DNA from: a virus
Direction: 5' to 3' (one strand)
Virus record (IMG/VR): IMGVR_UViG_3300043184_000094
Coordinates: 1-56,259 of that record
DNA length: 56,259 nt
Shown here: positions 12,421 to 56,259 of the stretch, one piece after another
How the letters are laid out: the number at the start of each line of letters is the position of its first letter
Numbering within the stretch: position 1 is the stretch's first letter
Program-made: the position numbers and the translations under genes
Notes under the pieces: model-generated
Seen by the model: the letters and a program-made list of their open reading frames with translations, nothing else
Database searches by the model: none
What the model was told of the DNA's origin: nothing

Positions 12421-13815
12421 TCACTCTTGCGGCATGTCGCCGCGGGCGAACTTGGCGAACTTGGCGAATCTGACGGGCGGGCCGGCGTCGGGGACGGCCT
12501 CCCGGAACCGGAACGTCGGCCCGTGGAACTCCAGCCGGGCGGTCCCGGTCGTGCCGTTCCGCTGCTTCGCCACGATCAGGTCGATGGGCTCGGCGTCCCC
12601 GACCCCGGGAACGCCGGGGCGGTGCAGGAACATCACGATGTCGCAGTCCTGCTCGACCGACCCCGACTCCCGGATGTCGCCGAGCCGCGGCGCGCGGGCC
12701 TCCTCCTCGCACTTCCGGTTGAGCTGGCTGAGCATCAGTACCGGGCACCCGAGCCGGCCGGCCATCAGCTTCAGCCCGCGAGACATCTCGGCCACCTGCT
12801 CGTGCCGGGGGGCGCGGCGGTCGGCCGGCCGCAGGAGTTGGAGGTAGTCCACGACGACCAGCCCGAGCGGCGATTCCCGCGATTCCCGCGATTCCCGCGA
12901 CGCCCGGCGGGCCTCGGCCGGGATGTCGTCGGCCGTCAGCCGGGGGTCGGACAGGAACGTGATCGGCAGGTTCCGCAGCCGGTCGGCCGCCCCGATCAGC
13001 CGGGCGACCTGGGCGGCGTCCAGCCGGCCGGCCTTGGCCCGGTGGTTCGGCACGTCGGCCGCCGCCAGGAGCGACCGGTGGGCGACCTCCTGGGGCGTCA
13101 TCTCCAGGCTGACGAACAGCACCGGTCGGCCGGCGGCGGCGGTGTGCTCGGCGATCTGTAGGGCTAGCGCCGACTTCCCGACCCCGGGCCGGGCGGCGAC
13201 GCAGATCAGTTCGCCGGGGCGGAACGCCCCGGTGTACCCGTCGATGGTCGGCAGGCCGCTCGCCGCCCCAGGCTTGGCGTCGTCCCGGGCCGCGGCGTCG
13301 ATGGCGGCCAGCGCCCGCGACACGGCCCCGGCCATCGTCACCCGCTCGGCGTCGCCGTGCTGACGGTCCAGCAGCGCGGCCAGCGACCGGATCGACTCCT
13401 CGGCCAACAGCCGCGGGTCGGGGATCACCGGGTTGCGGGCGTCCCGTTCGATCAGGGCGGCGGCAACGACCAGCCGCCGGAACAGCGACCGCCGCTCGAC
13501 CAGCGTGGCGTGGTAGTCGATCTGCGCGGCCGTCACGACGAGGCCGCGAAGCCCCTTCCAGTCCGCCAAGTCGCCCACGTCGGCCGCCCACCCCCGGCGG
13601 GCGATCTCGGCCCCGACCGACGCCAAGTCGGGGGTCTGGCCGGCGGCGTGAAGGTCCGCCATCACCGCGAACAGCCGGCGGCACTTGTCCTCGTAGAAGT
13701 CGTCCGGGGCAAGACGCCGGGCGACCTCACCGAACGCCGCCGGCTCGTGCAAGATCGCCCCCAGAACCCCGAGCTCGGGCAGCATGTCCCAAGTCGATTC
13801 AAGGTCATCGTCCAC
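12421..13815 (-). CDS. dnaB: Replicative DNA helicase, DnaB family
   Basis: Walker A ARPGVGKSALAL, VVVDYLQLL, SQLNR, GDIRESGSVEQDCDIVMFLHR. GTG start with GGGAG upstream. Confidence 0.95.
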   Translation of the reverse strand: MDDDLESTWDMLPELGVLGAILHEPAAFGEVARRLAPDDFYEDKCRRLFAVMADLHAAGQTPDLASVGAEIARRGWAADVGDLADWKGLRGLVVTAAQIDYHATLVERRSLFRRLVVAAALIERDARNPVIPDPRLLAEESIRSLAALLDRQHGDAERVTMAGAVSRALAAIDAAARDDAKPGAASGLPTIDGYTGAFRPGELICVAARPGVGKSALALQIAEHTAAAGRPVLFVSLEMTPQEVAHRSLLAAADVPNHRAKAGRLDAAQVARLIGAADRLRNLPITFLSDPRLTADDIPAEARRASRESRESRESPLGLVVVDYLQLLRPADRRAPRHEQVAEMSRGLKLMAGRLGCPVLMLSQLNRKCEEEARAPRLGDIRESGSVEQDCDIVMFLHRPGVPGVGDAEPIDLIVAKQRNGTTGTARLEFHGPTFRFREAVPDAGPPVRFAKFAKFARGDMPQE

Positions 13816-13971: not shown

Positions 13972-14937
13972 CTAATCGGTGAGCGGGTTGAAGTAGGTCA
14001 GCCCCGGGGTCGGCACGAACCCGAGCTTCGGGTCGTAGCCCGGCCGCTCGTGGACCGGCGTGAACAGGTCGGACTGGGCCTCCCGGACCTTGGCGATGTG
14101 CTTCACCAGTTCGCCGACCTCGGGCCGGGTCCGCTCGCCCCGCGCCCACGGGCAGAGTTGCAGGAACTTGGCGGCGAACTTCCGAACGTCGGCGACCCCG
14201 TACCCGGCCGCCTTCAGGTCCGCCGCCGCCTTCCCGATCTGGCCCCCGTTCAGCTTCGGGTCCGCGCCGGTGACTTCCGCCACCGCGTCGAAAAGTTCGT
14301 TCCGCTCGCGCGGCGCGGGTTCCTTCCTCGCCGGCGGTTTTGGTTTCCGCTTCCGGGTCGCGGGTTGGTCGTTCTCGCTCGCGGGGTCCGGCTCGGCGGA
14401 CTCCGCAAGTATTCTCTTAGGACTAGGACTAGGACTAGGACTAGGAATAGGTAAGGAAGCGCTCTTATTCATCACTGACCCGTCACTGACCGATGACTGA
14501 TCGATATGTCGGCTAGTGGCTGGGTCATCACTGATCGATATGCCAAAATCGCCTATCGTCGGCGTAAAGTATTTGCCGGGATGCTCATCGGACGCGCCGT
14601 CCGAGACGCCTCGGAAGCGTTCCGGGACCGTTACGAAGTAGGTTGGCGGAACCCGCGAGGAACCCGGACGGAACACAAGCCAACCGGCCCGCGAGGCGGC
14701 TTTACGCATCCTCGACAGCCGGCAAAACGACGCAACCCCGAGAATCATCATCAACTGCGCGTTGTGAAAGTTCACCGGGCCGCGATACCCCTTGGCGTCC
14801 TCGGTGGCGGCTATGACGGATAGGAGGCCAATAACGTCCGCCCCGAGTTCGTTGCCTAGGGCCGTCTTTGCCATCAGCCTGATGAACTTGAGCGCGAAGA
14901 ACGGCGGGCGGGCGGGGTAATCGGCCGGCTTGGACAT
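13972..14937 (-). CDS. Replication initiator / replisome-organiser-like protein (position-based call)
   Basis: Lies immediately upstream of dnaB. Two-domain protein joined by a low-complexity linker (SPSPSPSP) that coincides with phased DNA repeats. ATG at 14937 (GAGGGG 8 nt upstream); track start is 14943. Confidence 0.6.
   Translation of the reverse strand: MSKPADYPARPPFFALKFIRLMAKTALGNELGADVIGLLSVIAATEDAKGYRGPVNFHNAQLMMILGVASFCRLSRMRKAASRAGWLVFRPGSSRVPPTYFVTVPERFRGVSDGASDEHPGKYFTPTIGDFGISISDDPATSRHIDQSSVSDGSVMNKSASLPIPSPSPSPSPKRILAESAEPDPASENDQPATRKRKPKPPARKEPAPRERNELFDAVAEVTGADPKLNGGQIGKAAADLKAAGYGVADVRKFAAKFLQLCPWARGERTRPEVGELVKHIAKVREAQSDLFTPVHERPGYDPKLGFVPTPGLTYFNPLTD
14418..14541. 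promoter_or_regulatory. Candidate origin of replication: hexamer array plus four 11-nt-phased iteron-like repeats inside the initiator-like gene
   Basis: (TAGGAC)x4 plus 2 variants at 14418-14453. TCACTGACC at 14472 and 14483, TGACTGATC at 14494, TCACTGATC at 14527 (spacings 11, 11, 33). ACTGATCGATATG occurs twice. Locally AT-richer. Confidence 0.5.
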
Positions 14938-18567: not shown

Positions 18568-18948
18568 GTGGCAAAGTCGCTGAAGGGCCATCGGGTCGAG
18601 ACAGTCCAGGTGGACCCGCCGGCCGCCGGGCCGGTGAAGAGGAGGGTGCCGACGGACAACCGGCAGGTCCGGCACCGGCCGCCGATTTACTTTGAGACGA
18701 AGACGTTGGCGGCCCACTTCAACATCAAGCAGGGGTCGCTGATCGAGATGCTGTTCTTTGACCGGATGGTCGAGTTGAGCGAGCGGTTCTTGGCCGAGCG
18801 GCGGGCCGGCCGCTCGGCAGGGCTGGTCGCCGCCTACCGAGAAATCATTGGTCTGGAGCCGGGCGGCGTGCTGCCGCCCGCACTACTGGCGGAGATGGCC
18901 GAGGCGGACGACGACTCGGCGCTCGCCTCGACGCCGATGAGGGAGTGA
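18568..18948 (+). CDS. Hypothetical protein upstream of the integrase (possible regulator), 126 aa
   Basis: GTG with GAGGAG 7 nt upstream. Protein-like. Ends 2 nt before the int ATG. Confidence 0.6.
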   Translation: MAKSLKGHRVETVQVDPPAAGPVKRRVPTDNRQVRHRPPIYFETKTLAAHFNIKQGSLIEMLFFDRMVELSERFLAERRAGRSAGLVAAYREIIGLEPGGVLPPALLAEMAEADDDSALASTPMRE

Positions 18949-18950
18949 GC

Positions 18951-20252
18951 ATGGCAAGGGTCTACCGGGCGACTTGGACGCAGTGCGTTGACGGCGAGCG
19001 GGTCCGCCGGCACGTTAAGAACTGGTACATGGAGTTCGTGGACTGGCGGGGCGTCCGCGTCCGCCAGCCGGGCACGAGCGACCGGAAGCAGACGCTCCAG
19101 TTGGCCGTCCGGCTGGAGCGGGAGCACGCCGAGGCGCGGGCGCTGGGCGTCCCGCACCGGTCGTCGGCCGACCGCCGGCCGCTGGCCGACTGGGCGGCCG
19201 AGTTCCTGGCCCGGATCGAGGGTCGGGGGCGGACCAAGGGCCACGTCGCCACGGTACGGCAGCAGCTGGCCCACTTTCTGGACGGCATCTCCGACCTGCA
19301 CGAGTTCACCCAGGACCACGCCGAGCGGCGACTTGCCGACATTGCCAGTCGGCGGCCGGCCGGCACCACCGCCCGCGCCTACCACACCACGGCGATGTCG
19401 TTCGGCCTGTTCCTGGCGAAGCGGCGGGCGGTGGCCGGGAACCCCTTGATCGGGCTGGAGCGGCCCCCGCTGGGGCCGCCGGGCCGCCGCCGCCGCAGCG
19501 AGTCGCCCGACTTTCTGGGCAAGCTCATCTCGGCCACCCGGACCGCCCGCCGGCGTGGCGGCCTCGGCGGCGAGTCCCGGGCGTGGCTGTACACGGTCGC
19601 CGCCCTGACCGGCTACCGAGCGCGGGAGCTGGCCGCAATGCTCCCGGCCGACTTCGACCTCGACCAGTCTCCGCCGGTCGCCCGGTTGCCGGCCGAGTTC
19701 TCGAAGCGAGGCGAGGCGGAGAGCCAGCCGATCCCCGACGCCATCGTGCCGGCGCTGCGGGCGTTCCTGGCGAGTCGCACCAAGGCGGGGCCGGTCTGGA
19801 GGGGGGGGTGGTACGACACAAAAAGGCGGAGGTGCAGCGCCGCCCGGATGCTGCGCGCCGACTTGGCCGATGCCGGCCTGCCGTTCGCCGACGCCCGGGG
19901 CCGGGCGTTCGACTTCCACGCGCTCCGGGTGACGTACATCACCAGCTTGGGCCGGAGCGGGGTGCCGTTCGCCGTCGTCTTCAAACTGGCCCGGCACGCC
20001 ACCCCGGCGCTGACGCTGAAGGTGTACAGCGACCACGGAATTATCGACCAGGCGGCCGGCGTGAACCAAATCGCCCTGCCCACATCCTTGCCGGATTCTT
20101 GCCAGCCCCTTGCCCCGGGCCGCCGGCCCGGCAGCAAGAAAGTCGCCGAGTCGCCGCCGCGGCAAGTCGGCGATTCCGGGTCGGAGTCGCAACCTGTTGA
20201 CCCGCAACCCGATGCCGGCCGCGACAACGCGACCGGGCCGCCATCTTCGTAG
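18951..20252 (+). CDS. int: Tyrosine-type site-specific integrase
   Basis: ALTGYRARELAAM (box I Arg), FHALRVTYITSL, LARHATPALTLKVYSDH (His-x-x-Arg ... Tyr). GGGAG upstream of the ATG. Confidence 0.9.
   Translation: MARVYRATWTQCVDGERVRRHVKNWYMEFVDWRGVRVRQPGTSDRKQTLQLAVRLEREHAEARALGVPHRSSADRRPLADWAAEFLARIEGRGRTKGHVATVRQQLAHFLDGISDLHEFTQDHAERRLADIASRRPAGTTARAYHTTAMSFGLFLAKRRAVAGNPLIGLERPPLGPPGRRRRSESPDFLGKLISATRTARRRGGLGGESRAWLYTVAALTGYRARELAAMLPADFDLDQSPPVARLPAEFSKRGEAESQPIPDAIVPALRAFLASRTKAGPVWRGGWYDTKRRRCSAARMLRADLADAGLPFADARGRAFDFHALRVTYITSLGRSGVPFAVVFKLARHATPALTLKVYSDHGIIDQAAGVNQIALPTSLPDSCQPLAPGRRPGSKKVAESPPRQVGDSGSESQPVDPQPDAGRDNATGPPSS
20088..20103 (+). repeat. 16-mer TTGCCGGATTCTTGCC, copy 1 (inside the int 3' end)
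   Basis: Matches 20362-20377 at 15 of 16 positions. Confidence 0.6.
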
Positions 20253-20361
20253 CCTCACCCGACGATCGGCTTCCGCCGCTTGATGTAGTCTATGGCGTGC
20301 GGTCAGGCCAGCCGCCTTGCCCGGCAACGGGTTGCGGTTGCGGCTGCGGCTCGTCTGCAAC

Positions 20362-20377
20362 TTGGCGGATTCTTGCC
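20362..20377 (+). repeat. 16-mer TTGGCGGATTCTTGCC, copy 2 (convergent gap downstream of int)
   Basis: Direct repeat of 20088-20103. Possible integrase arm site or att-associated element. Confidence 0.6.
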
Positions 20378-21006
20378 TACCGGCCGTCCGGCCGCCACCG
20401 GCCGGCCTGCGGCGGGCAGGCTTCTGGCAAGGCGAACTCGATTGACGGCCAAGCCGCCCGTAAAAGTGCAAGCGTAAAGAATCGCTCAGCGTCTGCCGGC
20501 CGGAGCGAGTCTAGGTCGATGTCGCTCACCGACATCATGGCCGAGGTGCCGTCCAGCCGTAGCAGCGAGGTGCGGCGCGGGCCGTCCGGGCGGGCCGTCA
20601 CAAGCGGTCGCGTTCGCAGTCGCACCGCCTCGACCGGGTGCCGCCGGGTGATGTCGCCGGCGATCCCGACCCACCGCGGGCCGTCGCACTCGACCTCCGA
20701 GACGAAGCCGCGGTGGACGGTTAGCGACGCGCCAGGGTGCGGCACCTCGATGAGTATGCCGATGGCTGTCGGCGTCCACTGATCGGCCGACCGGCCGCCA
20801 CGCTGCATGATGGCGAGCGCGCCGCCGCCTTCCGGGAACTTGCGCCGCAGCCCGTCCTCGGCGAGACAGGCCATACGGATGTAGCTCGCCCGCGCCTCGC
20901 CGTCGGGGTCGCCCGTCTCGCCCAGGTAGTCGGCGAGGGCGAGCCGTGGCAGGTCGTCGAGCGGCGACGCCAGCACGGCCCTGAGTAGCGATTCGCGGTC
21001 GTTCAT
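20377..21006 (-). CDS. TIGR02996-like (Gemmata repeat-companion) N-terminal domain protein, 209 aa
   Basis: MNDRESLLRAVLASPLDDLPRLALADYLGETGDPDGEARASYIRMAC resembles the TIGR02996 consensus as I remember it. Track ORF trimmed to this ATG. Confidence 0.75.
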   Translation of the reverse strand: MNDRESLLRAVLASPLDDLPRLALADYLGETGDPDGEARASYIRMACLAEDGLRRKFPEGGGALAIMQRGGRSADQWTPTAIGILIEVPHPGASLTVHRGFVSEVECDGPRWVGIAGDITRRHPVEAVRLRTRPLVTARPDGPRRTSLLRLDGTSAMMSVSDIDLDSLRPADAERFFTLALLRAAWPSIEFALPEACPPQAGRWRPDGR

Positions 21007-24081: not shown

Positions 24082-24419
24082 TTCCGCCCCCGCTTCCGCG
24101 CCAGCCCCGGACGGCCGACGACCTTGTTCGGGACGCCCTCGGGGCGGCACGCCTTCCTGGGGGCCTCGCCGCCCAGCCCGGCCAGCCCGGCCAGCTTCAT
24201 GCACCTGGCGAGGTCGGTCAGCCGGTAGTGCCACTCGCCGCAGCGGACGTGGACCTGCTCGGCCAGCCCCTTGTCCGCCAGCCGCTCGACGTGCCGCGAG
24301 GCGTCCCACAGCGACAGGCCGAGGTCGGCGGGGCCGAACCGCTGCGGGTCCAACTCCAGCAGGATGCGGCGGAGGGTCCGGCCGAGGTCGTCGTTCGTCG
24401 TGCGGGGACGGGCCATCAT
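24078..24419 (-). CDS. Winged-helix (MarR-like) DNA-binding protein, about 113 aa
   Basis: RTLRRILLELDPQRFGPADLGLSLWDASRHVERLADKGLAEQV. ATGA overlaps at both ends. Confidence 0.55.
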   Translation of the reverse strand: MMARPRTTNDDLGRTLRRILLELDPQRFGPADLGLSLWDASRHVERLADKGLAEQVHVRCGEWHYRLTDLARCMKLAGLAGLGGEAPRKACRPEGVPNKVVGRPGLARKRGRK

Positions 24420-25112
24420 GCGGCCTCCAGCTTGGCAAGTAGCCGATCCCGCCACGCGACCGCCCAGTCCATGCAGTTGGCGCAGGACTTGTGGCGGTGG
24501 CCGGGTAGCGGCGGGCGGCGGCGGGCGTTGAAGCTCCAGGCCATGCTGTCGGAACTGGCGAGGCGGCGGCCGTACCTTGCCAGCCCGGTCGTCTTCATGC
24601 CGAACCCGTGGATTCGGATGCCGCGGTCAGCCAACGCGGCGACAATCCCCGCAGCCTCGGCCGTCCCCTGCCGCCGACACGCCGACCCGAGGCCGACGAC
24701 CGGCAGACTGGTCAGGTCGAGCCTCGCGTAGCGCAGGTACAGGTCGGCGTGCAGCAGGTAGTCGCCGAGTTCCCAGCCCTGAAGCACCGGCACCCACGGC
24801 ACGTCGGGGGCGATCCCGTTCAGCTCGCACCAAGAGTTGATGGTGAACATCTGGTGCTCCAGGAGCGAGTGCCCGGTCTTGGCGAGTACGAACGGCCCGC
24901 ACATCCAGTCCTGGATCGCGGCCCACTCCATGCCGCCGATTTCGCCCCGCCACCGCCGGGCCTCGGCAGCGTACTGCTTCGGCGTCGTCTCCCACCGCCC
25001 GGACCGGTTCAGCTCCGCGAAGCCGCCGGAGCAACCGCCGGGCGCTGACGAATAGCGGGACCGTCGTCCTCGGGAGCCACGCCGGCTCGTGGGTGCCGAG
25101 CCAGAACGTCAT
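24416..25112 (-). pseudogene. dpdA: DpdA-like (TGT-fold) DNA/queuine transglycosylase with an interrupted reading frame
   Basis: The N-terminus MTFWLGTHEPAWLPRTTVPLFVSARR is in one frame (ATG 25112). SGGFAELNRSGRWETTPKQY...VLQGW...VVGLGSACRR...HGFGMKTTGL...SSDSMAWS...HKSCANC is in the +1 frame (track ORF 24416..24931 plus its upstream extension). The switch is at about 25023-25045. Confidence 0.6.
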
Positions 25113-30811: not shown

Positions 30812-31492
30812 CTACAGGTGGTCCCAGCCGGCGGGTGTGGCCGGCGGGGTGTGGTCGGCGACGGCCAGCGCGAGCCGGACGCCGGGATGTCCGCGATGGT
30901 CGCGGAAGTCGGACCGGCCGTCGGGCCGGTCGCGGGGCGAGGCCGGGCCGTCGCCGGGGATGTCGCATTCCTCTAGCGCGTCCGCTAGCGCCGGAGCGAC
31001 CCCCGCATCTCCGTCGAGAAACTGCCGGGCCAGCGCCGCGGCATCTGCCGACGCCGGCCGGGCCGATCGAACCGGCCCGGCGTGCAGCCAGCCGTCGTCG
31101 CCGGGGTAGGTGTCGCACTCGCCGAAGGGGTGGGATGGCGCGGTCAGTTCGTCGCCGTGCTCCGGCCAGTCGCCGTCCCAGAAGCCCACGCCGTGACCGT
31201 TGCGGGTCATCCAAAAATCGTGCCCGGCGTCGGACTCCCGGCCGGCGATCTGGCCGGCGGCCAGCGCGCGGAACCGGTCGCAATCCTCGCGGGGCTGGGT
31301 GACGGTTTCGGGGTCCAGGTCGGCCGCAGTGCGATCGCGGTCCAGCGGTACCCCCGTGTCCGGGTCGGTACTCGACCAGGGCGCGGCGTCCGGGTGGGCG
31401 TTGAGGAATTCCGCAGCGGCCGCGGTAGCGGCTGACCCGGCCGGCGTGACTGTCCCGTCGGTGACTGCGTAGACGGTGTAGGTAGCCTTCAT
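30812..31492 (-). CDS. Hypothetical protein, 226 aa (HDFWMTRNGHGVGFWD motif; C-terminal ALADALEE motif); first gene of the minus-strand block
   Basis: Track ORF trimmed to MKATYTVYAV. ACGGAG lies 7 nt upstream. Confidence 0.7.
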   Translation of the reverse strand: MKATYTVYAVTDGTVTPAGSAATAAAAEFLNAHPDAAPWSSTDPDTGVPLDRDRTAADLDPETVTQPREDCDRFRALAAGQIAGRESDAGHDFWMTRNGHGVGFWDGDWPEHGDELTAPSHPFGECDTYPGDDGWLHAGPVRSARPASADAAALARQFLDGDAGVAPALADALEECDIPGDGPASPRDRPDGRSDFRDHRGHPGVRLALAVADHTPPATPAGWDHL

Positions 31493-33008
31493 TGCGTGAC
31501 TCCGTTGGTGTGCGACAGGGCGACTGTCGCGGTTGCAACGGGTATAGCGGCGGTCGTGCCAACCGGTCAACGCCGACCGCGATTCGCACGAGGCCCCGTG
31601 TTTTCCCGGCAATTGGAGAGATTGTGAGGTGTCGCCGGTGTGCCTTTGTGCGCTACCGCCGGGTTAACGCCCGTTGCCAGAGGTTAGCGCCGCGTTGCCG
31701 GGGGTTTGCACTCGGCGGCCGATGCCCCCCTCCCCCTTCTGGGGGGGGATGGTCGGCCAGGTGCCAGCCAGCTCCGCCCGCCAATCGTCACCGTTGCCGT
31801 GACGTATCTCCCGGCAATCCCGACCCGGGTCGTCGAGCATCCGCCCCGTGCCTACCTGGCCCTGACCCCTGCCAGCCAAGCAGGCGGCAGAGGGGATGCG
31901 GGGAGGGGAGACACTGCGTCATTCTGTCGTTGGCTATTGCTACTTAGCGCTGCCTAACTGGCTGGTTATGCGCGGCGAAGCAAGATTCCGGACAAGATTT
32001 CATAACCGGTGTTAGTGCAAGGTGTTGAGACGGTGGCGATTGTGCCGATTATCCGGCCAGATGTGGGATCAGCCGCCGCCGGCCGCCTGCAGAGGCCCGG
32101 GGGTAGGCCCCAGCCGCCCCCGCACCGTGTATTACCTTCCCCCCCGACAGTTTTTTCGCCGTATAACCCGGCCCTTTGGGGTCTCCGGCGGCCCCGATGG
32201 GTGTGGCGGTTGACCGCCGGGCGGTGGCCGCGAACCCGCCCACCCTTCGAGGCGGTTTTCGGATCGGGTCTTCGGTTCTGGGGTCGAGGGGTTAGCGCGC
32301 GACCGGGCCGCCGCTTTGGGCGGCCCGGCGACCGCCGCCTTGGGCGGTCGAGTGACCAAGGAAGGGGCGAAAGGCAGTGCTTTTACCGGGGGCAGGCGCA
32401 CCGACCCCGCGAAAACGCACCGCGGAGGGGCCGCGGAACGTCAAACAGGGTCGGTGCGAGTCGCACCGGGCGGTCACTGACGGTCCCGCCTTCCCCAGCG
32501 CCTGCGTGCGAGGGCTCTCACGCCTTTGCCCCCCGGCCGTTCGTCGTCACCACTCCGGGGCGCTCCGCAGGATACCCGGCCACTTCTTCGGTCCCGGGCG
32601 GGTTCGTCCCGGTATCCGCCACCAGCTCGCCCGCAGGCCGTGGGGTGGCGCACGTCTGCCAATCAGGGGCTGTCCGCAAGTCGGGCTCGCTTGGCGAGCC
32701 GCCGTCCGGCTGGTTTCCCGGATATCCTCCCCGGGCCGGTCTGCGACGGGATCGCCGTCAACAGCTGTTCTCGCACAAAGCCCCCGACCGCCATTAGCGA
32801 CTTCGTAAATAATCCCCTGGTCGGCCCGCCGCCAGGCCGGGCAGCCGCCAAAACCGGTAGAATTTACCGATCCTGACGATTCTGTCGCTCTGCTTAGTTG
32901 TTCCGGTGGCGCATTGTCGCCTTTGCGTCTCGTAACGCCGCCGCCGGCCGGCCAGAATAGCCTCGTCGCACACCGGCCCGACCCCCGCGAGCCGCAGGCC
33001 CGAGCCCC
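31493..33008. other. About 1.5-kb ORF-free, repeat- and hairpin-rich region between the divergent early and late blocks
   Basis: No frame shows protein-like composition or the GC3 bias typical of this genome. Contains direct repeats, homopolymer tracts and nested stems (see findings). Confidence 0.6.
31541..31570 (-). promoter_or_regulatory. Candidate early promoter TTGACC-N18-TATACC
   Basis: Plus-strand ggtcaa at 31565-31570 and ggtata at 31541-31546. About 45 nt of leader with the GCGACAG/CTGTCGC hairpin before the SD of 30812..31492. Confidence 0.35.
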
Positions 33009-34013
33009 ATGAACGAGACAGCCGGCGACCAGCCAGTCACCGCCGAGCCGGCCGCCCCGGCCCCGGCCGCCGCCGGCGTCCCGGCCGCCCCGGCCCCGGC
33101 CGCCGCCGGCGTCCCGGCCGCCCCGCCGCCGGGGCCGGCGATGCCCGCCGCCGGGGCGGGGGCGTCCGACCCCTACGCCGACCTCCGCCGCGAGCGGGAC
33201 GAGTACCGCCGGCAAGTGGAGCAGTACCGGCCGCTCGCCGAGATGGGCTACCGCTCGTACCAGGCCGAGCAGCAGGCCGCCCGCCAGAGGCAGATGGAGC
33301 GGGAGCAGGCCGAGCGGTCCAGGCCGTGGGTGGACCTGCCGAAGTTCGAGCGGCAGCTGATGCAGTTCGTCGCCCGCGACCCGAGCACCGGCGAGCTCGT
33401 CGCCAAGCCCGGCGCGCCGCCGGACCTCCTGGCCCGCTACCAGGAGTTCCAGCAGCGGTACGAGGAGACGGCCTGGAACCTGGTGACGGCCCCCGAGAAG
33501 GTGCTGGCCGACCCGATCCGCCAGCTCGTCGCCGCCGAGGCCGCCGGGATCGTCCGCGAGCAGATGGCCGAGTACCAGCGGCAGCAGCAGGTGCAGGGCA
33601 TCCTCCGCGACAACTCGTCGTGGCTGTTCGCCCCGGACCCGGGGCCGGCCGGCCGCCCGGTGCTCAGCGAGGCCGGCCGCCTGTTCCACCTGCACGTCCA
33701 GGAGGCGGCGGCGATGGGCATCGCCGACGACGCCCGGCAGGCCGCCTACGCCCGCCGCCAGTTGGAGGCCGACCTGATCCGGCTCCTGCACCAGCGGGCC
33801 GGGGCCGCGCCGACCGCCGCCGCGGCCTCGGCCGCCCAGAAGGACGGGTTCCTGAACGCCGCCGGGGCCAACCGCCCGGCCGCCGCCCCGCCGAGCGCAC
33901 CGCCCGCCGCCGGGCTGTCGCCCGGGGCCGGCGGGGACCGGGCGGTGGCGGCCACCATGATGGCCCGGCTGCGGGCGGCCGGGATCAGCGACGACCACGT
34001 TTTCACCGGCTGA
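33009..34013 (+). CDS. Scaffolding-protein candidate (Gln/Arg/Glu-rich helical), 334 aa
   Basis: Lies immediately upstream of the capsid-like gene. Coiled-coil-like composition. 33-nt tandem duplication (PAAPAPAAAGV x2) at about 33049-33114. Confidence 0.6.
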   Translation: MNETAGDQPVTAEPAAPAPAAAGVPAAPAPAAAGVPAAPPPGPAMPAAGAGASDPYADLRRERDEYRRQVEQYRPLAEMGYRSYQAEQQAARQRQMEREQAERSRPWVDLPKFERQLMQFVARDPSTGELVAKPGAPPDLLARYQEFQQRYEETAWNLVTAPEKVLADPIRQLVAAEAAGIVREQMAEYQRQQQVQGILRDNSSWLFAPDPGPAGRPVLSEAGRLFHLHVQEAAAMGIADDARQAAYARRQLEADLIRLLHQRAGAAPTAAAASAAQKDGFLNAAGANRPAAAPPSAPPAAGLSPGAGGDRAVAATMMARLRAAGISDDHVFTG

Positions 34014-34042: not shown

Positions 34043-35131
34043 ATGGCCGAGGCGTGGGCCAGGATCGTGAACACGACGATCTCGGAGTACGTGAGGGGCG
34101 AAGAAGAAAACGTCATGCGGAACCGGAAGCTGACCGCCCTGCTGAAGAAGCGGGGCCGCGTCACCTTCAACCACGCCGGCAAGAACCACGACTGGAAGGT
34201 CCGGTACAAGCGGGCGCTGATGACGGGGTACGCCGACGGCGACACCCTGTCGTTCGCCCGGAAGGACCGCCACAAGTCGGCCGTGCTCGACTGGCGGGGC
34301 TACTCGGCCACCGACTCGGTGACGAAGTTCGAGCAGCTCCAGAACAAGGGCACGGCCGCCATCGTCAGCGTCTTCTCGCAGACGGCGACGATGCTCATGG
34401 ACGACATGACCGACCAGTTCGGCGACGAGCTGTACATCGACGGCAACGCGACCGGGAACTCCAAGCGGATGCACGGCCTGGAGTCCGCGCTCGCCCACGG
34501 CGCGCTCCTGGCGAACAGCCCCGTCCACGCGCCGGCGGACGTGTACGCCGGCCTCCAGTGCTCGCTCGGGCACTACGGCGGGGCGTGGTCGCAGGCGGCC
34601 GGCGCGACGACGTGGCCGGTCGGCACCGGGGACGCCCACTACGACTTCTGGTCGCCGCTGATCGTGGACTACGGCAACGCCGCGTTCAGCGCGACGGCGA
34701 CGTGGGCGGCCAACAGCATCAAGGCGATGCGGTACGGCATCGCCCACCAGGCCCGCAACCGGTCGAAGAAGTCGATGATGGACCTCGTGCTCCTGGACCC
34801 GGACCTGTACCGGCAGTTCCTCGACGCCAACGAGGCGAAGCAGCAGATTCACATCCGCCGGGGGGACGGCCAGGGGCTCGTCAGCCTCGGGTTCGAGGAC
34901 ACGATCAACTTCGACGGGATCGAGGTCACGAAGGAGTTCGGGGTGCCGGCGGCCGTCGGGTACGGGCTGGCCATCGACCAGCTGGAGCTGATGAGCCTCC
35001 AGGGCCAGTTGTTCGAGCCGATGGGGCCGGACATGGAAATCAGCACGAAGGCGTACCGGTTCTCCATCGACTTCTTCGGCAACCTGAAGTTCAACCCGCG
35101 GCACATGGTCAAGTTCCGCAAGGGCAGCTGA
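34043..35131 (+). CDS. Major capsid protein candidate, 362 aa
   Basis: Track ORF with the strongest protein-like signal in the block. Strong G-rich SD. Followed by a 13-bp hairpin. Call rests on size and position only. Confidence 0.65.
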   Translation: MAEAWARIVNTTISEYVRGEEENVMRNRKLTALLKKRGRVTFNHAGKNHDWKVRYKRALMTGYADGDTLSFARKDRHKSAVLDWRGYSATDSVTKFEQLQNKGTAAIVSVFSQTATMLMDDMTDQFGDELYIDGNATGNSKRMHGLESALAHGALLANSPVHAPADVYAGLQCSLGHYGGAWSQAAGATTWPVGTGDAHYDFWSPLIVDYGNAAFSATATWAANSIKAMRYGIAHQARNRSKKSMMDLVLLDPDLYRQFLDANEAKQQIHIRRGDGQGLVSLGFEDTINFDGIEVTKEFGVPAAVGYGLAIDQLELMSLQGQLFEPMGPDMEISTKAYRFSIDFFGNLKFNPRHMVKFRKGS

Positions 35132-42453: not shown

Positions 42454-42789
42454 ATGCCGCACAGCTACCAGGAGAAGAAGGCGAGCCGGGAGCTGAAGCA
42501 GCGGACGCTGGACCGGCTGACCGGCAAGGCGCTGGTCCCGACCCAGCACGAGTTCCTGGAGGAGTTGATCCGGCTGGCCGGCGGCCCGCGGGCGCTGGCC
42601 GCCCTGATCTACAAGGAGATGTCCTCGGAGAGGTGCCCGCCGACGCTGAAGGCCAGGGTGCTGGACACCGTGCTCCGGGCGATGAAGGCGGTCGAGGACG
42701 TGACCGGGCCGCCCGAGGTGTCCGACCTGACCGACGACGAGCTCGTACAGTTGATCGCCGACCGCGTGGGGAAGCTGGATGCCGGGTGA
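42454..42789 (+). CDS. Small terminase subunit candidate (position-based), 111 aa
   Basis: Lies directly upstream of, and overlaps, the large terminase. Basic helical protein. Confidence 0.5.
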   Translation: MPHSYQEKKASRELKQRTLDRLTGKALVPTQHEFLEELIRLAGGPRALAALIYKEMSSERCPPTLKARVLDTVLRAMKAVEDVTGPPEVSDLTDDELVQLIADRVGKLDAG

Positions 42790-44590
42790 GCCGCCGCCGA
42801 CCGACGCCCTGGCCGCCCTCCTCGGGCGGCTCGCGGGGCCGGCCGCACGCCCGCTCCCGGGGCCGGCCGGCCCCCGGCCGTCGCCGGCCCGCCCCGCGCC
42901 GCCGGCGGACCCGGTTCCGGCCGTGCCCGCCGCCCGCTCGGCCGTCACCGACGCCTCCGACCTCGCCGCCCCGACCGAGGCCGACTTGGTTCAGCGCCGG
43001 TGGGCGGCCGAGGCGATGGCCGCCGCCCGGGAGCTGGCCCGCCGGGACAGCGAGGCGCTGACGCTGTACGAGCCGCTGCCCGAGCAGGCGAAGTTCCACG
43101 CCAGCCGGACCCGCCAGCGGGCGATCCGCGGCTCGAACAGGGCCGGGAAAACCCTGGCGGCGGCCGTCGAGGTCGCGCGGGCGCTGGCCGGCAAAGACCC
43201 CCACGGGAAGTTCCCGGACCGGGACGGCCGGGCCTACGCGGTCGGCCTCGACCTGATGCACGTCGGCCAGGTGTTCTACCGGAAGCTGTTCCGGGCCGGC
43301 GCGTTCTGGATGATCAGGGACGCCGCCACCAACCGGTGGCGGGCGTACCGCCCGTGGGACGCCGCCGACGCCGCCCGCCGCCGGGAGCGCCGCCCGGCCC
43401 CGCCGCTCGTCCCGGCCCGGCTGATCGACGGCAAGATCGCGTGGGAGGACAAGGGCAAGGGCATCCCCCGGCTGATCCGGCTGAAGACGGGGTGGGAGAT
43501 CACCTTCTTCTCCTCGCAGGCCAAGCCGCCGCAGGGGATGGACCTCGACCTCGTGTGGTTCGACGAGGAGATCGAGGACTCGGAGTGGTATCCCGAGATG
43601 GCCGCCCGGCTCATCGACCGCGGCGGCCTGTTCGTGTGGAGCGCCACCCCGCAGGCCGGCAACGAGCAGCTGCTGGCCCTGAGCGAGCGGTCCGCCCGGG
43701 ACCGGCTGGAGGAGGTGCCGACGGTGGAGGAGTTCGTCGTCCTGATGGACGAGAACCCGCACATCCCGGCCGAGGACAAGCGGGCGTTCGCGTCGCTCCT
43801 GGACGACGACCAGTTGGAGGTCCGGGTCGGCGGCGAGTTCGCGGCGAAGAAGTGGCGGGTGTACCCGGAGTTCGTGCCGAGCGTCCACGTCCGCCCGGTC
43901 CCGGACGTGCCGGCCGCCTGGACCCGGTACATGAGCGTGGACCCGGGCCGGCAGGTGTGCGGGGTGCTGTTTTTGGCCGTCCCGCCGCCGGGCACCGAGC
44001 CGTTCGATTACGTCGCCTACGACGAGCTGTACCTGAAGGGGTGCTCGGCCGCGATGTTCGCCTCGCGGGTCGCCCAGAAGGCCCGCGGGCAGGAGTTCGA
44101 GGCGTTCGTCATCGACGGGCGGATGGGCCGGCAGACGGAGCTCGGCTCCGGGCTGACGGTGAAGAGCCAGTACAGCAAGGCGCTCCAGGCGGCCGGCGTC
44201 CGCAGCCGCACGACCGGCTCCGGGTTCGCCGACGGGCTGGACGACGTGAAGGCCGGCATCGAGCTCTGCCGCGACTGGCTCCGGGCCAAGGGCGGCGACG
44301 GGTGCCCGCGGCTGGTCGTCCGGGCCGGCACCTGCCCGGCGTTCCAGGACGAGATCAAGCGGTACCGGTACAAGCGGGCCGGGAAAATCGTGACCGACGA
44401 GCCGGAGTCGCGGGGGGCGGTCCACCAGATGGCGAACTTCCGCTACCTTGCCGGGTTCAACCCGAAGTACCGCCGGCCGCAGGCGGTCGCCCGCGGGTCG
44501 TCCGCGTACCAAGCGTTCGCCGCCAAGCGGGCCAAGCGGCGGGCCGAGTCCGGCCACGTCACCCTCGGCCCCGCCAGGAGTCAGACATGA
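42779..44590 (+). CDS. terL: Terminase large subunit
   Basis: Walker A-like RGSNRAGKT, Walker B LDLVWFDEE, C-terminal nuclease-type acidic motifs (MSVDPG). 603 aa. Confidence 0.9.
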   Translation: MPGEPPPTDALAALLGRLAGPAARPLPGPAGPRPSPARPAPPADPVPAVPAARSAVTDASDLAAPTEADLVQRRWAAEAMAAARELARRDSEALTLYEPLPEQAKFHASRTRQRAIRGSNRAGKTLAAAVEVARALAGKDPHGKFPDRDGRAYAVGLDLMHVGQVFYRKLFRAGAFWMIRDAATNRWRAYRPWDAADAARRRERRPAPPLVPARLIDGKIAWEDKGKGIPRLIRLKTGWEITFFSSQAKPPQGMDLDLVWFDEEIEDSEWYPEMAARLIDRGGLFVWSATPQAGNEQLLALSERSARDRLEEVPTVEEFVVLMDENPHIPAEDKRAFASLLDDDQLEVRVGGEFAAKKWRVYPEFVPSVHVRPVPDVPAAWTRYMSVDPGRQVCGVLFLAVPPPGTEPFDYVAYDELYLKGCSAAMFASRVAQKARGQEFEAFVIDGRMGRQTELGSGLTVKSQYSKALQAAGVRSRTTGSGFADGLDDVKAGIELCRDWLRAKGGDGCPRLVVRAGTCPAFQDEIKRYRYKRAGKIVTDEPESRGAVHQMANFRYLAGFNPKYRRPQAVARGSSAYQAFAAKRAKRRAESGHVTLGPARSQT

Positions 44591-55677: not shown

Positions 55678-56259
55678 ATGAGCCGGCTGGGCGGATTCCC
55701 GGTGGTCGGCGGGTTCGGCGGGGGCACGACCGGCGGCCCCGGCCGGGGCCTGGAGATCTTTTCCGTCTACGGCGTGGACCCGAACGAGAACTACCAGCGG
55801 CAGCAGCAGGCGAGGCTCCAGCGGCAGCTCCAGCAGGACCAGCTCCGGTCCGAGGACGCCAGGGCGAGGCTCGGGGCCGACACCCAGCGGTACGCCATCG
55901 ACCGGCAGGGGGACACGGCCCGGTACGCCACCGACGCCGACCGGTACGCCGCCGGGCTGAACGCCGAGACGACCCGCCGCGGGCAGGACTTCTCCCTCCA
56001 GTCGGCCAACCGCGGGTACGACGTGCAGCGCGAGGGCAACCGGCTGCAATCGGACACGTCCCGCTACCTCGGCGACATCCAGAACGCGACGGCGCAGCGG
56101 GGCCAGGACTTCTCCCTCCAGTCGGCGCTCGCCGGGTACGACGTGCAGCGCGAGGGCAACCGGCTGCAATCGGACACGTCCCGCTACCTCGGCGACATCC
56201 AGAACGCGACGGCGCAGCGGGGCCAGGACTTCTCCCTCCAGTCGGCGCTCGCCGGGTAC
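55678..56259 (+). CDS. N-terminal part of the wrap-around 40-aa-repeat virion-block protein (continues at nt 2)
   Basis: ATG at 55678 with AAGGGGG upstream. My translation: MSRLGGFPVVGGFGGG...QRQQQARLQRQLQQDQL...RGQDFSLQSANRGYDVQREGNRLQ. No stop before the window end, so it is absent from the track. Confidence 0.8.
   Translation, partial: MSRLGGFPVVGGFGGGTTGGPGRGLEIFSVYGVDPNENYQRQQQARLQRQLQQDQLRSEDARARLGADTQRYAIDRQGDTARYATDADRYAAGLNAETTRRGQDFSLQSANRGYDVQREGNRLQSDTSRYLGDIQNATAQRGQDFSLQSALAGYDVQREGNRLQSDTSRYLGDIQNATAQRGQDFSLQSALAGY
55893..56259 (+). repeat. 120-bp tandem repeat array (window-end half)
   Basis: One degenerate unit at about 55893-56012, then identical units at 56013-56132 and 56133-56252, plus 7 nt. 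Confidence 0.95.

What the first reader, a model, noticed from the sequence alone, without database searches (positions are those of the whole stretch)
31493..33008. About 1.5 kb with no credible ORF in a tightly packed genome: structured, repeat-bracketed region between the early and late blocks (candidate large ncRNA / packaging-control hub)
Elsewhere genes overlap by 4 nt, but here about 1.5 kb has no protein-like frame. Plus ORF 32009..32797 and the minus-strand ORFs are Arg/Pro/Gly shadows with many A/T-ending codons. The region contains the following elements:
- A candidate early promoter on the minus strand at 31541-31570.
- Two adjacent ~20-nt direct repeats, GGTTAACGCCCGTTGCCAG (31662-31680) and GGTTAGCGCCGCGTTGCCGG (31682-31701), with a partial third copy at 32290.
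- A C6-T-C5-TTCT-G8 tract at 31725-31748.
- An AT-richer patch at 31918-32050 with CAAGATT x2 (31981, 31993) and the inverted pair GGTTATG/CATAACC (31964/32001).
- Back-to-back hairpins that share a loop: CCGGGCCGCC-GCTTTG-GGCGGCCCGG (32303-32328) and CGACCGCC-GCCTTG-GGCGGTCG (32329-32350).
- A 10-bp long-range stem GCACCGACCC/GGGTCGGTGC (32398-32407 with 32448-32457). It encloses CCGCGG-AGGGG-CCGCGG and is mutually exclusive with GGTGCGA-G-TCGCACC (32453-32467).
- The AT-rich 9-mer ATTCTGTCG, each followed by CTTAG, at 31921 and 32879. These copies bracket about 0.95 kb.
Alternative stems plus a bracketing promoter-like repeat would fit a transcribed structured RNA. A pac/cos site, a late-gene control region or a second origin are equally possible.
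Basis: seen in the sequence. Interest (0 to 1): 0.65.

Follow-up and report, generated by a model that had tools for sequence, protein, structure and literature searches.

The report
Conserved structured RNA-like module in phage control region
The 1.5-kb gene-free stretch is the control region between the two gene blocks of a temperate phage, and its right-hand 300 bases are a multi-hairpin element, conserved with compensatory base changes in at least 11 phage genomes and matching no known RNA family, so it is probably a new noncoding RNA.

Summary
Window 31494-33008 is the only long stretch of this complete circular 56.1-kb temperate phage genome without codon periodicity. It lies between the leftward early genes and the rightward scaffold/capsid genes.

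It is not one 1.5-kb RNA. It is a mosaic:
- **Left 0.9 kb:** mostly lineage-specific. It holds operator-like GGTTAGCGCC/GTTGCC repeats, two AT-richer promoter-like patches, one block conserved in sequence but not structure (32024-32160), and two very stable tandem hairpins that are not conserved.
- **Right about 310 nt (32395-32700):** a conserved multi-hairpin module.

I found the module in 11 distinct phage contigs, in several different gene contexts. In two of its helices, 10 of 12 pairs show changes on both sides, and no shuffle or slid control reached the observed covariation. Rfam 15 has no match.

The most likely reading is a new structured noncoding RNA of about 300-350 nt. Wobble-pair asymmetry favours the minus strand, roughly 65:35. 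Its function is inferred only; it may be a leader or riboregulator placed ahead of the tandem hairpins.

A pac/cos site, attP or a second origin are not supported.

The parts
31494..33008 (.). Whole gene-free region between the first leftward gene (ATG at 31493, minus strand) and the scaffold-like gene (ATG at 33009, plus strand).
   Evidence: No codon periodicity. ORFs have no Pfam hit. Relatives have a gene-free gap of 80 bp to 2.6 kb at the same place.
31541..31575 (-). Candidate promoter of the leftward genes: TTGACC, 18 nt, TATACC, about 45 nt upstream of the ATG. It overlaps an AACCGGTC motif shared with L054.
   Evidence: Read from the sequence. Below the scan threshold. AACCGGTC aligns with L054. 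Inference only.
31662..31701 (.). Two adjacent operator-like repeats, GGTTARCGCC...GTTGCC. A third partial copy lies at 32290-32299.
   Evidence: GTTGCC-N3-GGTTAGCGCCG is conserved in L054 at 2419-2455.
31900..32052 (+). AT-richer patch 1 (GC 0.53-0.55). It holds the first ATTCTGTCG copy and the only sigma-70-like site found: TTGAGA-16-GATTAT at 32025-32052.
   Evidence: 1 site found against 0.1 expected.
32024..32160 (.). Block B: conserved in sequence, without a convincing structure. It ends in the C-rich ACCTTCCCCYCC followed by a run of T.
   Evidence: 62-65% identity to L054 2976-3111 and L079 646-784. Weak consensus fold. Fold z = -0.28 on plus and +0.88 on minus.
32303..32350 (.). Two back-to-back GC-rich hairpins built from a duplicated 24-nt unit. 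They could be a terminator or insulator without a U tract. No counterpart where L054 aligns to them.
   Evidence: z = -5.04, 0 of 200 shuffles. Duplicated unit (D8). No counterpart in L054.
32395..32700 (-). Conserved multi-hairpin module, the candidate structured ncRNA. The strand call is tentative: minus about 65%, plus about 35%.
   Evidence: Homologous modules in L054, L002, L005, L050, L048, L015, L131, L184, L215 and L211. Covariation. No Rfam match.
32397..32458 (-). The arm GCGCAYCGACCCC is conserved in all copies, and the distal part varies in length.
   Evidence: z = -4.15. Same helix base in relatives. In L131 and L184 it folds well only on the minus strand. It extends by two G-U pairs on the minus strand in the window.
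32466..32566 (-). Core matched by covariance models R1 and R2. Two hairpins, HpU and HpD, flank a variable hairpin. HpU has a conserved loop, YTTTCACCC on the plus strand. HpD has its stem at 32531-32536 with 32555-32560 and a conserved 18-nt loop at 32537-32554, CCGTTCGTCGTCACCACT.
   Evidence: cmsearch 58.9-65.4 bits, E about 1e-8 to 1e-10. These values are seed-inflated. Pair counts.
32658..32670 (-). Small 3' hairpin GCC-AATCAGG-GGC. Relatives have GCCC-AACCNG-GGGC followed by CTATGT. All four pairs are flipped in L002 (GGGC...GCCC), and L054 has CGC...GCG.
   Evidence: Read from the sequences.
32684..32700 (.). Hairpin GGCTCGC-TTG-GCGAGCC at the right edge of the module.
   Evidence: z = -1.2, so not exceptional. 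Not examined in the relatives.
32800..32950 (.). AT-richer patch 2 (GC 0.57). It holds GAATTTACC (32860-32868) and the second ATTCTGTCG (32879-32887). Candidate divergent promoter region: late genes rightward, and possibly the module leftward as GCGACA-16-TAAATT on the minus strand.
   Evidence: GAATTTACC/GGTAAAT and the CGAT-TTG-CG block recur upstream of the scaffold gene in L048 and L054. The promoter reading is inference.

Best explanation
**Setting (shown).** The window is a complete, circularly assembled genome of a temperate phage. Its relatives are found as prophages in Planctomycetota. The gene-free 1.5 kb is the central control region between the leftward replication, recombination and lysogeny genes and the rightward scaffold, capsid, packaging and tail genes. 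It is a mosaic.

**Left part, 31494-32390.** This part carries promoter- and operator-like DNA signals, one sequence-conserved block, and a pair of very stable tandem hairpins.

**Right part, 32395-32700 (shown).** This is an autonomous, conserved module of four to six hairpins. Their stems co-vary while their loop sequences stay fixed. That pattern means base pairing in a single strand is under selection.

**What I infer.**
- The module is a structured noncoding RNA of about 300-350 nt.
- It is more likely read leftward, on the minus strand, from the AT-richer patch at 32.80-32.95 kb. That patch would then be a back-to-back promoter region shared with the late operon.
- On that strand the order is: promoter, module with purine-rich conserved loops, strong H1 hairpin, tandem hairpins 45 nt further on, then about 0.8 kb to the first early gene.
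- That is the layout of a leader RNA or riboregulator placed ahead of terminators. It would control how much transcription reaches the early genes (attenuation, or RNA-mediated antitermination). Alternatively a stable RNA ends at H1 or the tandem hairpins and acts in trans.

**Status of each step.** Shown: no coding, conservation, covariation, no membership in any Rfam family, variable genomic context. Inferred: that it is RNA, the strand, the promoter, and the regulatory role.
For: **No coding**
-.
- Indels of 1, 2 and 3 nt in and beside the conserved HpD loop (A12).

**Genome type and layout**
- 127-nt identical ends.
- Major capsid and large terminase genes.
- Integrase, DnaB, RecT/RecE-like and DpdA genes.
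- Prophage relatives in Singulisphaera and in Planctomycetales metagenome-assembled genomes.

**Collinear conserved blocks against L054, whose capsid protein is only 65% identical**
-.

**Module homologues**
-.

**Covariation on 11 sequences**
- 79.5% of cells are paired.
- 10 of 12 pairs have changes on both sides.
- 29 double-change cells against 10.6 ± 2.5 in shuffles (0 of 500).
- Covariation score 0.524 against 0.188 in shuffles (0 of 500). Slid controls reach at most 0.226.
- The same trend appears with 6 and 7 sequences.

**Autonomy: the module sits in different contexts**
- L048: between two leftward genes.
- L184: between two plus-strand genes.
- L215: beside the 3' end of a minus-strand operon.

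**Strand**
- H1 of L131 folds well only on the minus strand: z = -3.24 against +0.13.
- H1 of L184 likewise: z = -2.83 against -0.49.
- The plus-strand A-C and C-A mismatches are G-U pairs on the minus strand.
- The window's H1 gains two G-U pairs on the minus strand.
- Mean fold z over 7 modules is -1.63 on minus and -1.07 on plus.

**No known family**
-.
Against: - No transcript data exist, and no promoter or terminator meets even the simple consensus scans next to the module.
- Strand evidence is thin. By my hand count there are about 8 minus-type against 3 plus-type wobble cells. The automated count is noisy.
- L002 has a plus-strand-only, G-U-rich, T-tailed hairpin just after the module (z = -1.44 against -0.55).
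- In 6 of 7 relatives of the window's own family the module lies 100-350 nt upstream of, and co-oriented with, the scaffold gene. In L184 it is co-oriented with both flanking genes.
- The covariation alignment was fitted to the model, the sequences are few and related, and only 12 pairs were scored formally.
- In the window alone the whole-module folding energy is close to shuffles.
- The tandem hairpins needed for the 'leader plus terminators' picture have no counterpart in the one close relative aligned over that stretch (L054).
- The models do not detect the module in many relatives of similar capsid-protein identity (52-61%; L052, L079, L001, L003, L010).
Confidence: 0.5

Rival explanations
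1. The module is an RNA, but it is read rightward on the plus strand. It would be either a discrete small RNA ending just before the late promoter, or the first part of the late-operon leader, comparable to the lambda PR' leader or a put-like antitermination element.
For: - The module lies 100-350 nt upstream of, and co-oriented with, the scaffold gene in the window, L054, L002, L005, L050 and L015.
- It is co-oriented with both flanking genes in L184.
- L002 has a T-tailed hairpin that forms mainly on the plus strand, directly before a TTGACG-17-CACAAT site.
- A few G-U pairs occur on the plus strand (L050 HpU, L054 HpD).
Against: - H1 in L131 and L184 pairs properly only on the minus strand.
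- Fold z-scores are lower on the minus strand.
- On the plus strand the conserved loops are C/U-rich, which is atypical for structured RNAs (my own knowledge).
- In L048 the module is 4 kb from the scaffold gene and opposed to all its neighbours, while L048 keeps its own promoter-like GAATTTACC region at the scaffold gene. The module is therefore not required in cis for late transcription.
Confidence: 0.22
2. The module works as DNA, not RNA. It could be a structured single-strand initiation or primosome-loading signal, another origin-type element, a packaging signal, or a recombination site. Hairpins or cruciforms in one DNA strand would be what is selected.
For: - Covariation shows only that pairing in a single strand matters. 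It does not show which nucleic acid is involved.
- The orientation relative to neighbouring genes varies (L048 versus L184).
- The phage has a DnaB-type helicase and a weak RNase H-like match (phrog_531, E = 8e-4). In L048 an RNase H-like gene (Pfam RVT_3) starts 30 nt from the module.
- In L184 an HNH endonuclease gene ends 40 nt before it.
Against: - The module is 70-75% GC, with no iterons, no AT-rich unwinding region and no internal repeats.
- A low-GC, non-periodic stretch next to DnaB (14340-14700) is a better origin candidate.
- The large terminase gene is 10 kb away and the integrase gene 12 kb away.
- No consistent protein neighbour across the 11 copies.
- The asymmetry that favours G-U (or G-T) pairs on one strand is weak support either way.
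Confidence: 0.12
3. There is no dedicated element. The region is spacer or decayed-gene DNA in a GC-rich genome, the hairpins arise by chance, and the similarity to relatives is residual.
For:
- The gap length at this position varies from 80 bp to 2.6 kb among relatives.
Against: - 62-67% nucleotide identity persists in blocks although the capsid protein is only 55-67% identical.
- Compensatory changes occur in 10 of 12 scored pairs, and no control reaches the observed score.
- The same module recurs in phage contigs whose fetched stretches (4-14 kb) show no match to this capsid or scaffold protein and whose neighbouring genes differ.
- H1 and the tandem hairpins have z of -4 to -5.
Confidence: 0.04
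4. The region hides one or more small protein-coding genes that the composition-based view misses.
For: ORFs of 40-262 aa exist in all frames. An SD-like G-rich run lies on the minus strand of block B.
Against: - No GC3 signal, in a genome where real genes have GC3 of 0.85-1.0.
- No Pfam hits.
- No single meaningful tblastx hit.
- Indels that are not multiples of three in the most conserved segment.
- By eye, the start codon after the SD-like run is not conserved in L079.
Confidence: 0.03

Closest known systems
put RNAs of phage HK022 and the EAR element of Bacillus (cis-acting RNAs that make RNA polymerase resistant to terminators)
   Same: On the favoured minus strand the order would be promoter, structured RNA, strong hairpins, then genes. 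The conserved structure persists across phages whose proteins have diverged, as expected for an RNA that contacts conserved host machinery. In L048 the module sits inside an operon, between two genes, as EAR does.
   Different: put RNAs are two stem-loops of about 65-70 nt, whereas this module is about 300-350 nt with four to six hairpins. No sequence or model match was found. The cis action, the promoter and the terminators are all unproven. In L184 the module would be antisense to its neighbours. The comparison rests on my own knowledge of those systems and was not tested here.
Lambda-type late leader (PR' - qut - tR', the '6S' leader RNA)
   Same: A non-coding stretch directly upstream of the head genes of a temperate phage, containing strong hairpins.
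   Different: The lambda leader is about 200 nt and its function depends on a Q protein and a DNA site. Here a promoter-like conserved region lies downstream of the module, next to the scaffold gene. L048 keeps that region without the module. No Q-like gene was looked for.
Large or medium structured RNAs often carried by phages and prophages (GOLLD, ROOL, HEARO/omega RNA, c4 antisense RNA, phage tmRNA)
   Same: A structured RNA candidate of a few hundred nucleotides, carried as an autonomous unit in several phage genomes, and in one case (L184) next to an HNH gene.
   Different: No Rfam 15 model matches the window or six homologues, even at E ≤ 5-10. ARAGORN finds no tmRNA. The L184 HNH protein shows only HNH domains, and HNH adjacency occurs in 1 of 11 copies.
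Single-strand origins (sso) of rolling-circle plasmids and single-strand initiation signals
   Same: Elements of 150-300 nt in which the stems co-vary and the loop sequences are conserved, acting in one strand only.
   Different: Those elements belong to replicons that pass through a single-stranded stage. This is a tailed dsDNA temperate phage with a DnaB helicase. No Rep gene or nick site was noted. The comparison rests on my own knowledge.

Membership tests
Any Rfam 15 family (including GOLLD, ROOL, HEARO, c4, 6S, tmRNA, RNase P, riboswitches, ribozymes) | A match to the family covariance model at or near its gathering score. | tested here: not met
   No hits at gathering score in the whole window. 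Only noise at E ≤ 10 in 31300-33200. Nine relatives gave only two tRNAs, elsewhere. Six module-bearing loci gave no hit at the module at E ≤ 5.
tRNA / tmRNA | A tRNA-like fold found by ARAGORN. | tested here: not met
   No genes found in the window.
Phage pac/cos packaging site | Location next to or inside the terminase genes. | tested here: not met
   The large terminase gene is at 42779-44590, about 10 kb from the region. The circular assembly gives no information on physical ends.
Phage pac/cos packaging site | Virion DNA ends map to the site. | not testable with these tools
   Needs read-start pile-ups from virion DNA.
Replication origin (iteron or DnaA-box type) | Clustered direct repeats, an AT-rich unwinding element, and proximity to replication genes. 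| tested here: inconclusive
   The module has no repeats and is 70-75% GC, so it does not meet the feature. The left part has 2-3 GGTTAGCGCC repeats and an AT-richer patch, so it cannot be excluded. A better candidate, 14340-14700, lies next to DnaB.
attP integration site | Adjacency to the integrase gene. | tested here: not met
   The integrase gene is at 18945-20252, 12 kb away. A non-periodic stretch at 20160-20460 lies right beside it.
Diversity-generating retroelement template or retron ncRNA | A second, diverged copy of the repeat in a target gene, or an adjacent reverse transcriptase gene. | tested here: not met
   The region has no repeat elsewhere in the window. No reverse transcriptase was found among the 20 window ORFs scanned, the three nearest leftward genes among them.
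put-type or EAR-type processive antitermination RNA | A transcribed structured element between a promoter and terminators that acts in cis on RNA polymerase. | not testable with these tools
   The layout is compatible on the minus strand (module, then tandem hairpins with z = -5). No promoter, transcript or activity data exist.
Structured noncoding RNA (generic) | Conserved secondary structure supported by compensatory changes. | tested here: met
   10 of 12 pairs have changes on both sides. No shuffle (0 of 500) reaches the observed covariation, and slid controls are far lower. Caveats: 11 related sequences, and the alignment was fitted to the model.
Structured noncoding RNA (generic) | The element is transcribed. 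| not testable with these tools
   No expression data are available.

The most novel reading that the evidence does not exclude
The 32395-32700 module is the founding example of a new family of structured RNAs of about 300-350 nt. Diverse temperate phages of Planctomycetota-type hosts would carry it as an autonomous unit. It would act through its invariant loops (on the minus strand GGUGACGACGAACGG, GGGUGAAAG and AGAAGUG) as an RNA-only regulator of transcription elongation or of phage immunity. It would have no relationship to any described RNA family.
Probability: 0.4. Interest if true: 0.72.

Novelty: new variant of a known kind. Interest (0 to 1): 0.6.

Why it matters
Phages of Planctomycetota and related high-GC bacteria are almost unstudied, and nothing is known about how they regulate their genes.

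This element is conserved, has covariation support, is a few hundred nucleotides long, and lies outside every Rfam family. It recurs in unrelated gene contexts in at least 11 phage genomes. That makes it a concrete candidate for RNA structure and function studies, which can ask whether it is a leader antiterminator, an immunity RNA or a protein scaffold.

The work also gives a covariance model that can be run over viral and metagenomic collections.

It shows as well that in very GC-rich genomes folding energy against shuffles is a poor test for structured RNA. Comparison with distant relatives is what separates real elements from chance hairpins.

Tried and rejected
- **Cultured phages.** Searches with the region's DNA and with the capsid protein found no match.
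- **nhmmer.** Searches with the whole region and with a 4-sequence profile found only the seed sequences.
- **tblastx.** Comparing the region with all loci gave only low-complexity noise.
- **MAFFT.** Alignments of the whole module were unreliable. Only the core gave a usable seed alignment.
- **Block B.** The consensus fold is weak, so I do not claim structure there.
- **Folding energy.** Whole-module z-scores are uninformative at this GC content.
- **Promoter and terminator scans.** Scans around the module in L015, L005 and L002 gave nothing consistent.
- **14-15-base pattern in IMG/VR.** Only L131 was real, and L132 was a false positive inside a gene.
- **Combined two-motif pattern.** It returned 23 loci, but most were an unrelated coding sequence. 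I kept only those with the GCGCAYCGACCCC arm.
- **Models R1 and R2.** They found no copy in many family members (L052, L079, L001, L003, L010, L086 and others).
- **Conserved protein partner.** None was found. HNH adjacency occurs in L184 only.
- **Exact-protein look-ups.** These did not yield a second assembly covering the region.
- **Literature.** A search on Planctomycetes phages and ncRNA found nothing relevant.
- **Automated wobble count on H1.** It often picked the wrong partner arm, so I use it only qualitatively.
Full report
**1. What the window is**

The two ends of the window share 127 identical bases. This is an assembler overlap, so the contig is a complete circular assembly of 56,132 bp at about 73% GC.

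- **Plus-strand genes.** They run from 33009 across the contig junction to 9378. They include a scaffold-like gene (33009-34013), the major capsid gene (34043-35131, phrog_9953) and the large terminase gene (42779-44590).
- **Minus-strand genes.** They run from 31493 down to about 9.8 kb. They include a DnaB helicase, RecT/RecE-like recombinases, a Holliday-junction resolvase and a DpdA-like gene.
- **Lifestyle.** A tyrosine integrase on the plus strand (18945-20252) marks the phage as temperate.
- **Relatives.**
  - No cultured phage matches.
  - The capsid protein has hundreds of metagenomic relatives at 50-67% identity.
  - Prophage relatives occur in Singulisphaera sp. GP187 and in Planctomycetales metagenome-assembled genomes, among others.

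**2. The observation**

- Codon-position GC periodicity, which is very strong in the flanking genes (GC3 0.85-1.0), is absent from about 31.4 to 33.09 kb.
- This is the only stretch over 400 nt of that kind in the genome. The next longest are about 360 nt beside DnaB and about 300 nt beside the integrase.
- The ORFs inside have no Pfam match, and translated comparison with relatives gives only low-complexity noise.

The 'no credible ORF' claim therefore stands. The region is the junction of the divergent gene blocks.

| Item | z-score | Shuffles as stable |
|---|---|---|
| Tandem hairpins 32303-32350 | -5.0 | 0 of 200 |
| 10-bp-stem hairpin 32397-32458 | -4.15 | 0 of 200 |
| C/G tract | -1.2 | 28 of 200 |
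| GGTTATG/CATAACC pair | -0.04 | 85 of 200 |

- ATTCTGTCG occurs only twice in the window, both copies here, against 0.15 expected. Its spacing to CTTAG differs between the two copies.
- Three of the window's nine GGTTAGCGCC copies with at most 1 mismatch lie in the region.
- There are two AT-richer patches, at 31900-32050 and 32800-32950.

**3. Relatives have a gap at the same place**

- Upstream of the scaffold gene, relatives carry a gene-free gap of 80 bp to 2.6 kb.
- The closest full-length relative, L054 (capsid protein 65% identical, 72% GC), has about 1.7 kb without periodicity.
- A sensitive comparison of the window with L054 shows collinear conserved blocks in otherwise unalignable DNA:
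  - the GGTTAGCGCC/GTTGCC repeats;
  - block B (32024-32160), also found in L079 within a separate 1.2-kb gene-free stretch;
  - the 5' arm of the 10-bp stem (GGCGCACCGACCCC);
  - a block around 32495-32631.
- Block B has no convincing consensus structure and no folding signal on either strand. I treat it as a sequence-level signal, either promoter or protein-binding. The only sigma-70-like site in the region, TTGAGA-16-GATTAT at 32025-32052, lies at its start.

**4. The conserved module**

The last two blocks belong to one module of about 300-380 nt. It is shared by the window (32395-32700), L054, L002, L005, L050, L048 and L015. Read on the plus strand, its parts are:

- **H1.** A long hairpin whose base, CGACCCC/GGGGTCG, and whose 5' arm, GCGCAYCGACCCC, are conserved. 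The distal part ranges from a 5-nt loop in L215 to a branched insert of about 50 nt in L048.
- **HpU.** A hairpin with the loop motif YTTTCACCC.
- **A short variable hairpin.**
- **HpD.** A 5-6-bp stem enclosing an almost invariant 18-nt loop, CCGTTCGTCGTCACCNNN.
- **A CACTTCT motif.**
- **A small 3' hairpin.** GCCC-AACCNG-GGGC followed by CTATGT. All four pairs are flipped in L002 (GGGC...GCCC).

**5. Covariance models and further copies**

- A covariance model of the HpU-HpD core (R1) recovered the six seed sequences. It also found L015 at the expected place and orientation (E = 0.02-0.09).
- A database pattern found L131.
- A combined two-motif pattern, together with model R2, added L184, L215 and L211/L213. 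Most other pattern hits were an unrelated coding sequence and I discarded them.
- That makes 11 distinct copies.

**6. Covariation**

On the 11-sequence model alignment:

| Measure | Observed | Control |
|---|---|---|
| Cells paired | 79.5% | 60.0 ± 3.0% in shuffles (0 of 500 as high) |
| Pairs with changes on both sides | 10 of 12 | 6.6 ± 1.4 in shuffles (6 of 500 as high) |
| Double-change cells | 29 | 10.6 ± 2.5 in shuffles (0 of 500 as high) |
| Covariation score | 0.524 | 0.188 in shuffles (0 of 500 as high); slid partners at most 0.226 |

- HpU stems read CGCAG/CTGCG, CGCGG/CCGCG, CGTCG/CGACG, CTTCG/CGAAG and CGGTG/CACCG, with the loop unchanged.
- The trend was already visible with 6 and 7 sequences.
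- Indels of 1, 2 and 3 nt in and beside the conserved HpD loop argue against coding.

Caveats: the sequences are few and related, the alignment is fitted to the model, and only two helices were scored formally. The evidence for H1 and the 3' hairpin comes from reading the sequences.

**7. Context shows an autonomous unit**

- In the window, L054, L002, L005, L050 and L015 the module lies 100-350 nt upstream of the scaffold gene.
- In L048 it fills a 0.5-kb gap between two leftward genes, 4 kb from the scaffold gene. L048 still has its own promoter-like GAATTTACC region at the scaffold gene.
- In L184 it lies between an HNH endonuclease gene and further plus-strand genes. In L215 it abuts the 3' end of a minus-strand operon.
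- In none of L131, L184, L211, L213 and L215 does the fetched stretch (4-14 kb) match this capsid or scaffold protein.
- No protein neighbour is shared.

The module is therefore not an obligatory cis part of the late operon.

**8. Which strand**

Thermodynamics alone is weak. In the window z is -0.66 on the plus strand and -1.47 on the minus strand. Over seven modules the mean z is -1.07 on plus and -1.63 on minus.

Evidence for the minus strand:
- H1 in L131 folds well only on the minus strand: z = -3.24 against +0.13.
- H1 in L184 does the same: z = -2.83 against -0.49. Two A-C or C-A mismatches on the plus strand are G-U pairs on the minus strand.
- The window's H1 gains two G-U pairs on the minus strand.
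- On the minus strand the conserved loops are purine-rich, and the apical H1 loop of L005 is UUCG.

Evidence for the plus strand:
- A few plus-type wobbles.
- L002 has a plus-strand T-tailed hairpin just before a TTGACG-17-CACAAT site.
- The frequent co-orientation with downstream genes.

I put the minus strand at about 65%.

**9. What it is and how it may work**

- **Shown.** This is a non-coding control region. It contains an autonomous, conserved element whose single-strand base pairing is under selection, and that element belongs to no Rfam family.
- **Inferred.**
  - The element is a structured RNA of about 300-350 nt.
  - It is probably read leftward from the AT-richer patch at 32.80-32.95 kb. 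There GCGACA-16-TAAATT can be read on the minus strand, overlapping the conserved ATTCTGTCGC and GAATTTACC motifs.
- **Order on that strand.** Promoter, module, H1, the very stable tandem hairpins 45 nt further on, block B, the operator-like repeats, the candidate proximal promoter (31541-31575), then the first early gene.
- **Two possible roles.**
  - A leader or riboregulator ahead of terminators, acting by attenuation or by put/EAR-like antitermination.
  - A discrete stable RNA that ends at H1 or at the tandem hairpins.
- **Weakness.** L054, the one close relative aligned over that stretch, has no counterpart of the tandem hairpins. The specific mechanism therefore carries low confidence, about 0.2.

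**10. Alternatives**

- **Plus-strand RNA.** A real possibility.
- **DNA-level function.** A single-strand initiation signal, origin, packaging site or recombination site cannot be excluded by covariation alone. It is disfavoured by the 70-75% GC content, the lack of repeats, and the distance from the terminase and integrase genes. A better origin candidate lies beside DnaB.
- **Chance hairpins or decayed genes.** Contradicted by the covariation and by recurrence in other phages.
- **Hidden small genes.** Contradicted by composition, by indel lengths and by the lack of any protein signal.

**11. Verdict**

The structured-RNA candidate is a module of about 310 nt, not the 1.5 kb.
- About half of the listed motifs are lineage-specific or at chance level.
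- The module appears to be a new family of phage structured RNA-like elements, with unknown function.

Noticed in passing
window 1-127 and 56133-56259: The two ends are identical over 127 nt. This is an assembler k-mer overlap, so the contig is a complete circular assembly of 56,132 bp.
   Followed up: yes
window 33021-33137: The scaffold-like gene starts with 33-nt tandem repeats (15+18 nt sub-units) that encode a Pro/Ala-rich N-terminus. An independent assembly of the same phage (L047, run SRR13020431) breaks at about this point.
   Followed up: partly
window 14340-14700: A low-GC stretch (about 0.64 per kb) without codon periodicity, close to the DnaB helicase gene (12421-13815). It is a more plausible replication origin than the region under study.
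   Followed up: no
window 20160-20460: A non-periodic stretch directly after the integrase gene (18945-20252). This is a candidate attP.
   Followed up: no
window 24416-24931: A DpdA-like gene (PF23859, E = 1e-53). It suggests 7-deazaguanine modification of the phage DNA.
   Followed up: no
window 1945-1990: Four tandem 12-nt units containing GCTGAGCGCC (minus-strand reading), inside the 602-aa ORF at 895-2703.
   Followed up: no
L079 160-1329: A relative has a separate 1.2-kb gene-free stretch, 4 kb from its scaffold gene. It contains iteron-like GCTGCTGTTCC repeats (391-470) next to its copy of block B (646-784).
   Followed up: partly
L054 2290-3910: The closest full-length relative has its own repeat families in the gene-free region: GGGGCGATCAGC twice, about five copies of a GTGTCC-containing motif (mostly TTGTGTCC) by eye, and CCTGACACAG three times at about 3683-3712. 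This suggests lineage-specific protein-binding sites.
   Followed up: no
L184 490-1776: A 428-aa HNH endonuclease gene ends 40 nt before the module copy on the same strand. This adjacency was seen in only 1 of 11 copies.
   Followed up: partly
L010 11858-12004: Two tRNA genes directly downstream of the capsid gene in a relative. The window itself has no tRNA.
   Followed up: no
window 32860-32887; L048 about 8800-8815; L054 about 3755-3790: A conserved GAATTTACC/GGTAAAT motif and a CGAT-TTG-CG block lie 105-150 nt upstream of the scaffold gene. They are present even in L048, where the module is elsewhere. This is a candidate late (or divergent) promoter or activator site.
   Followed up: partly
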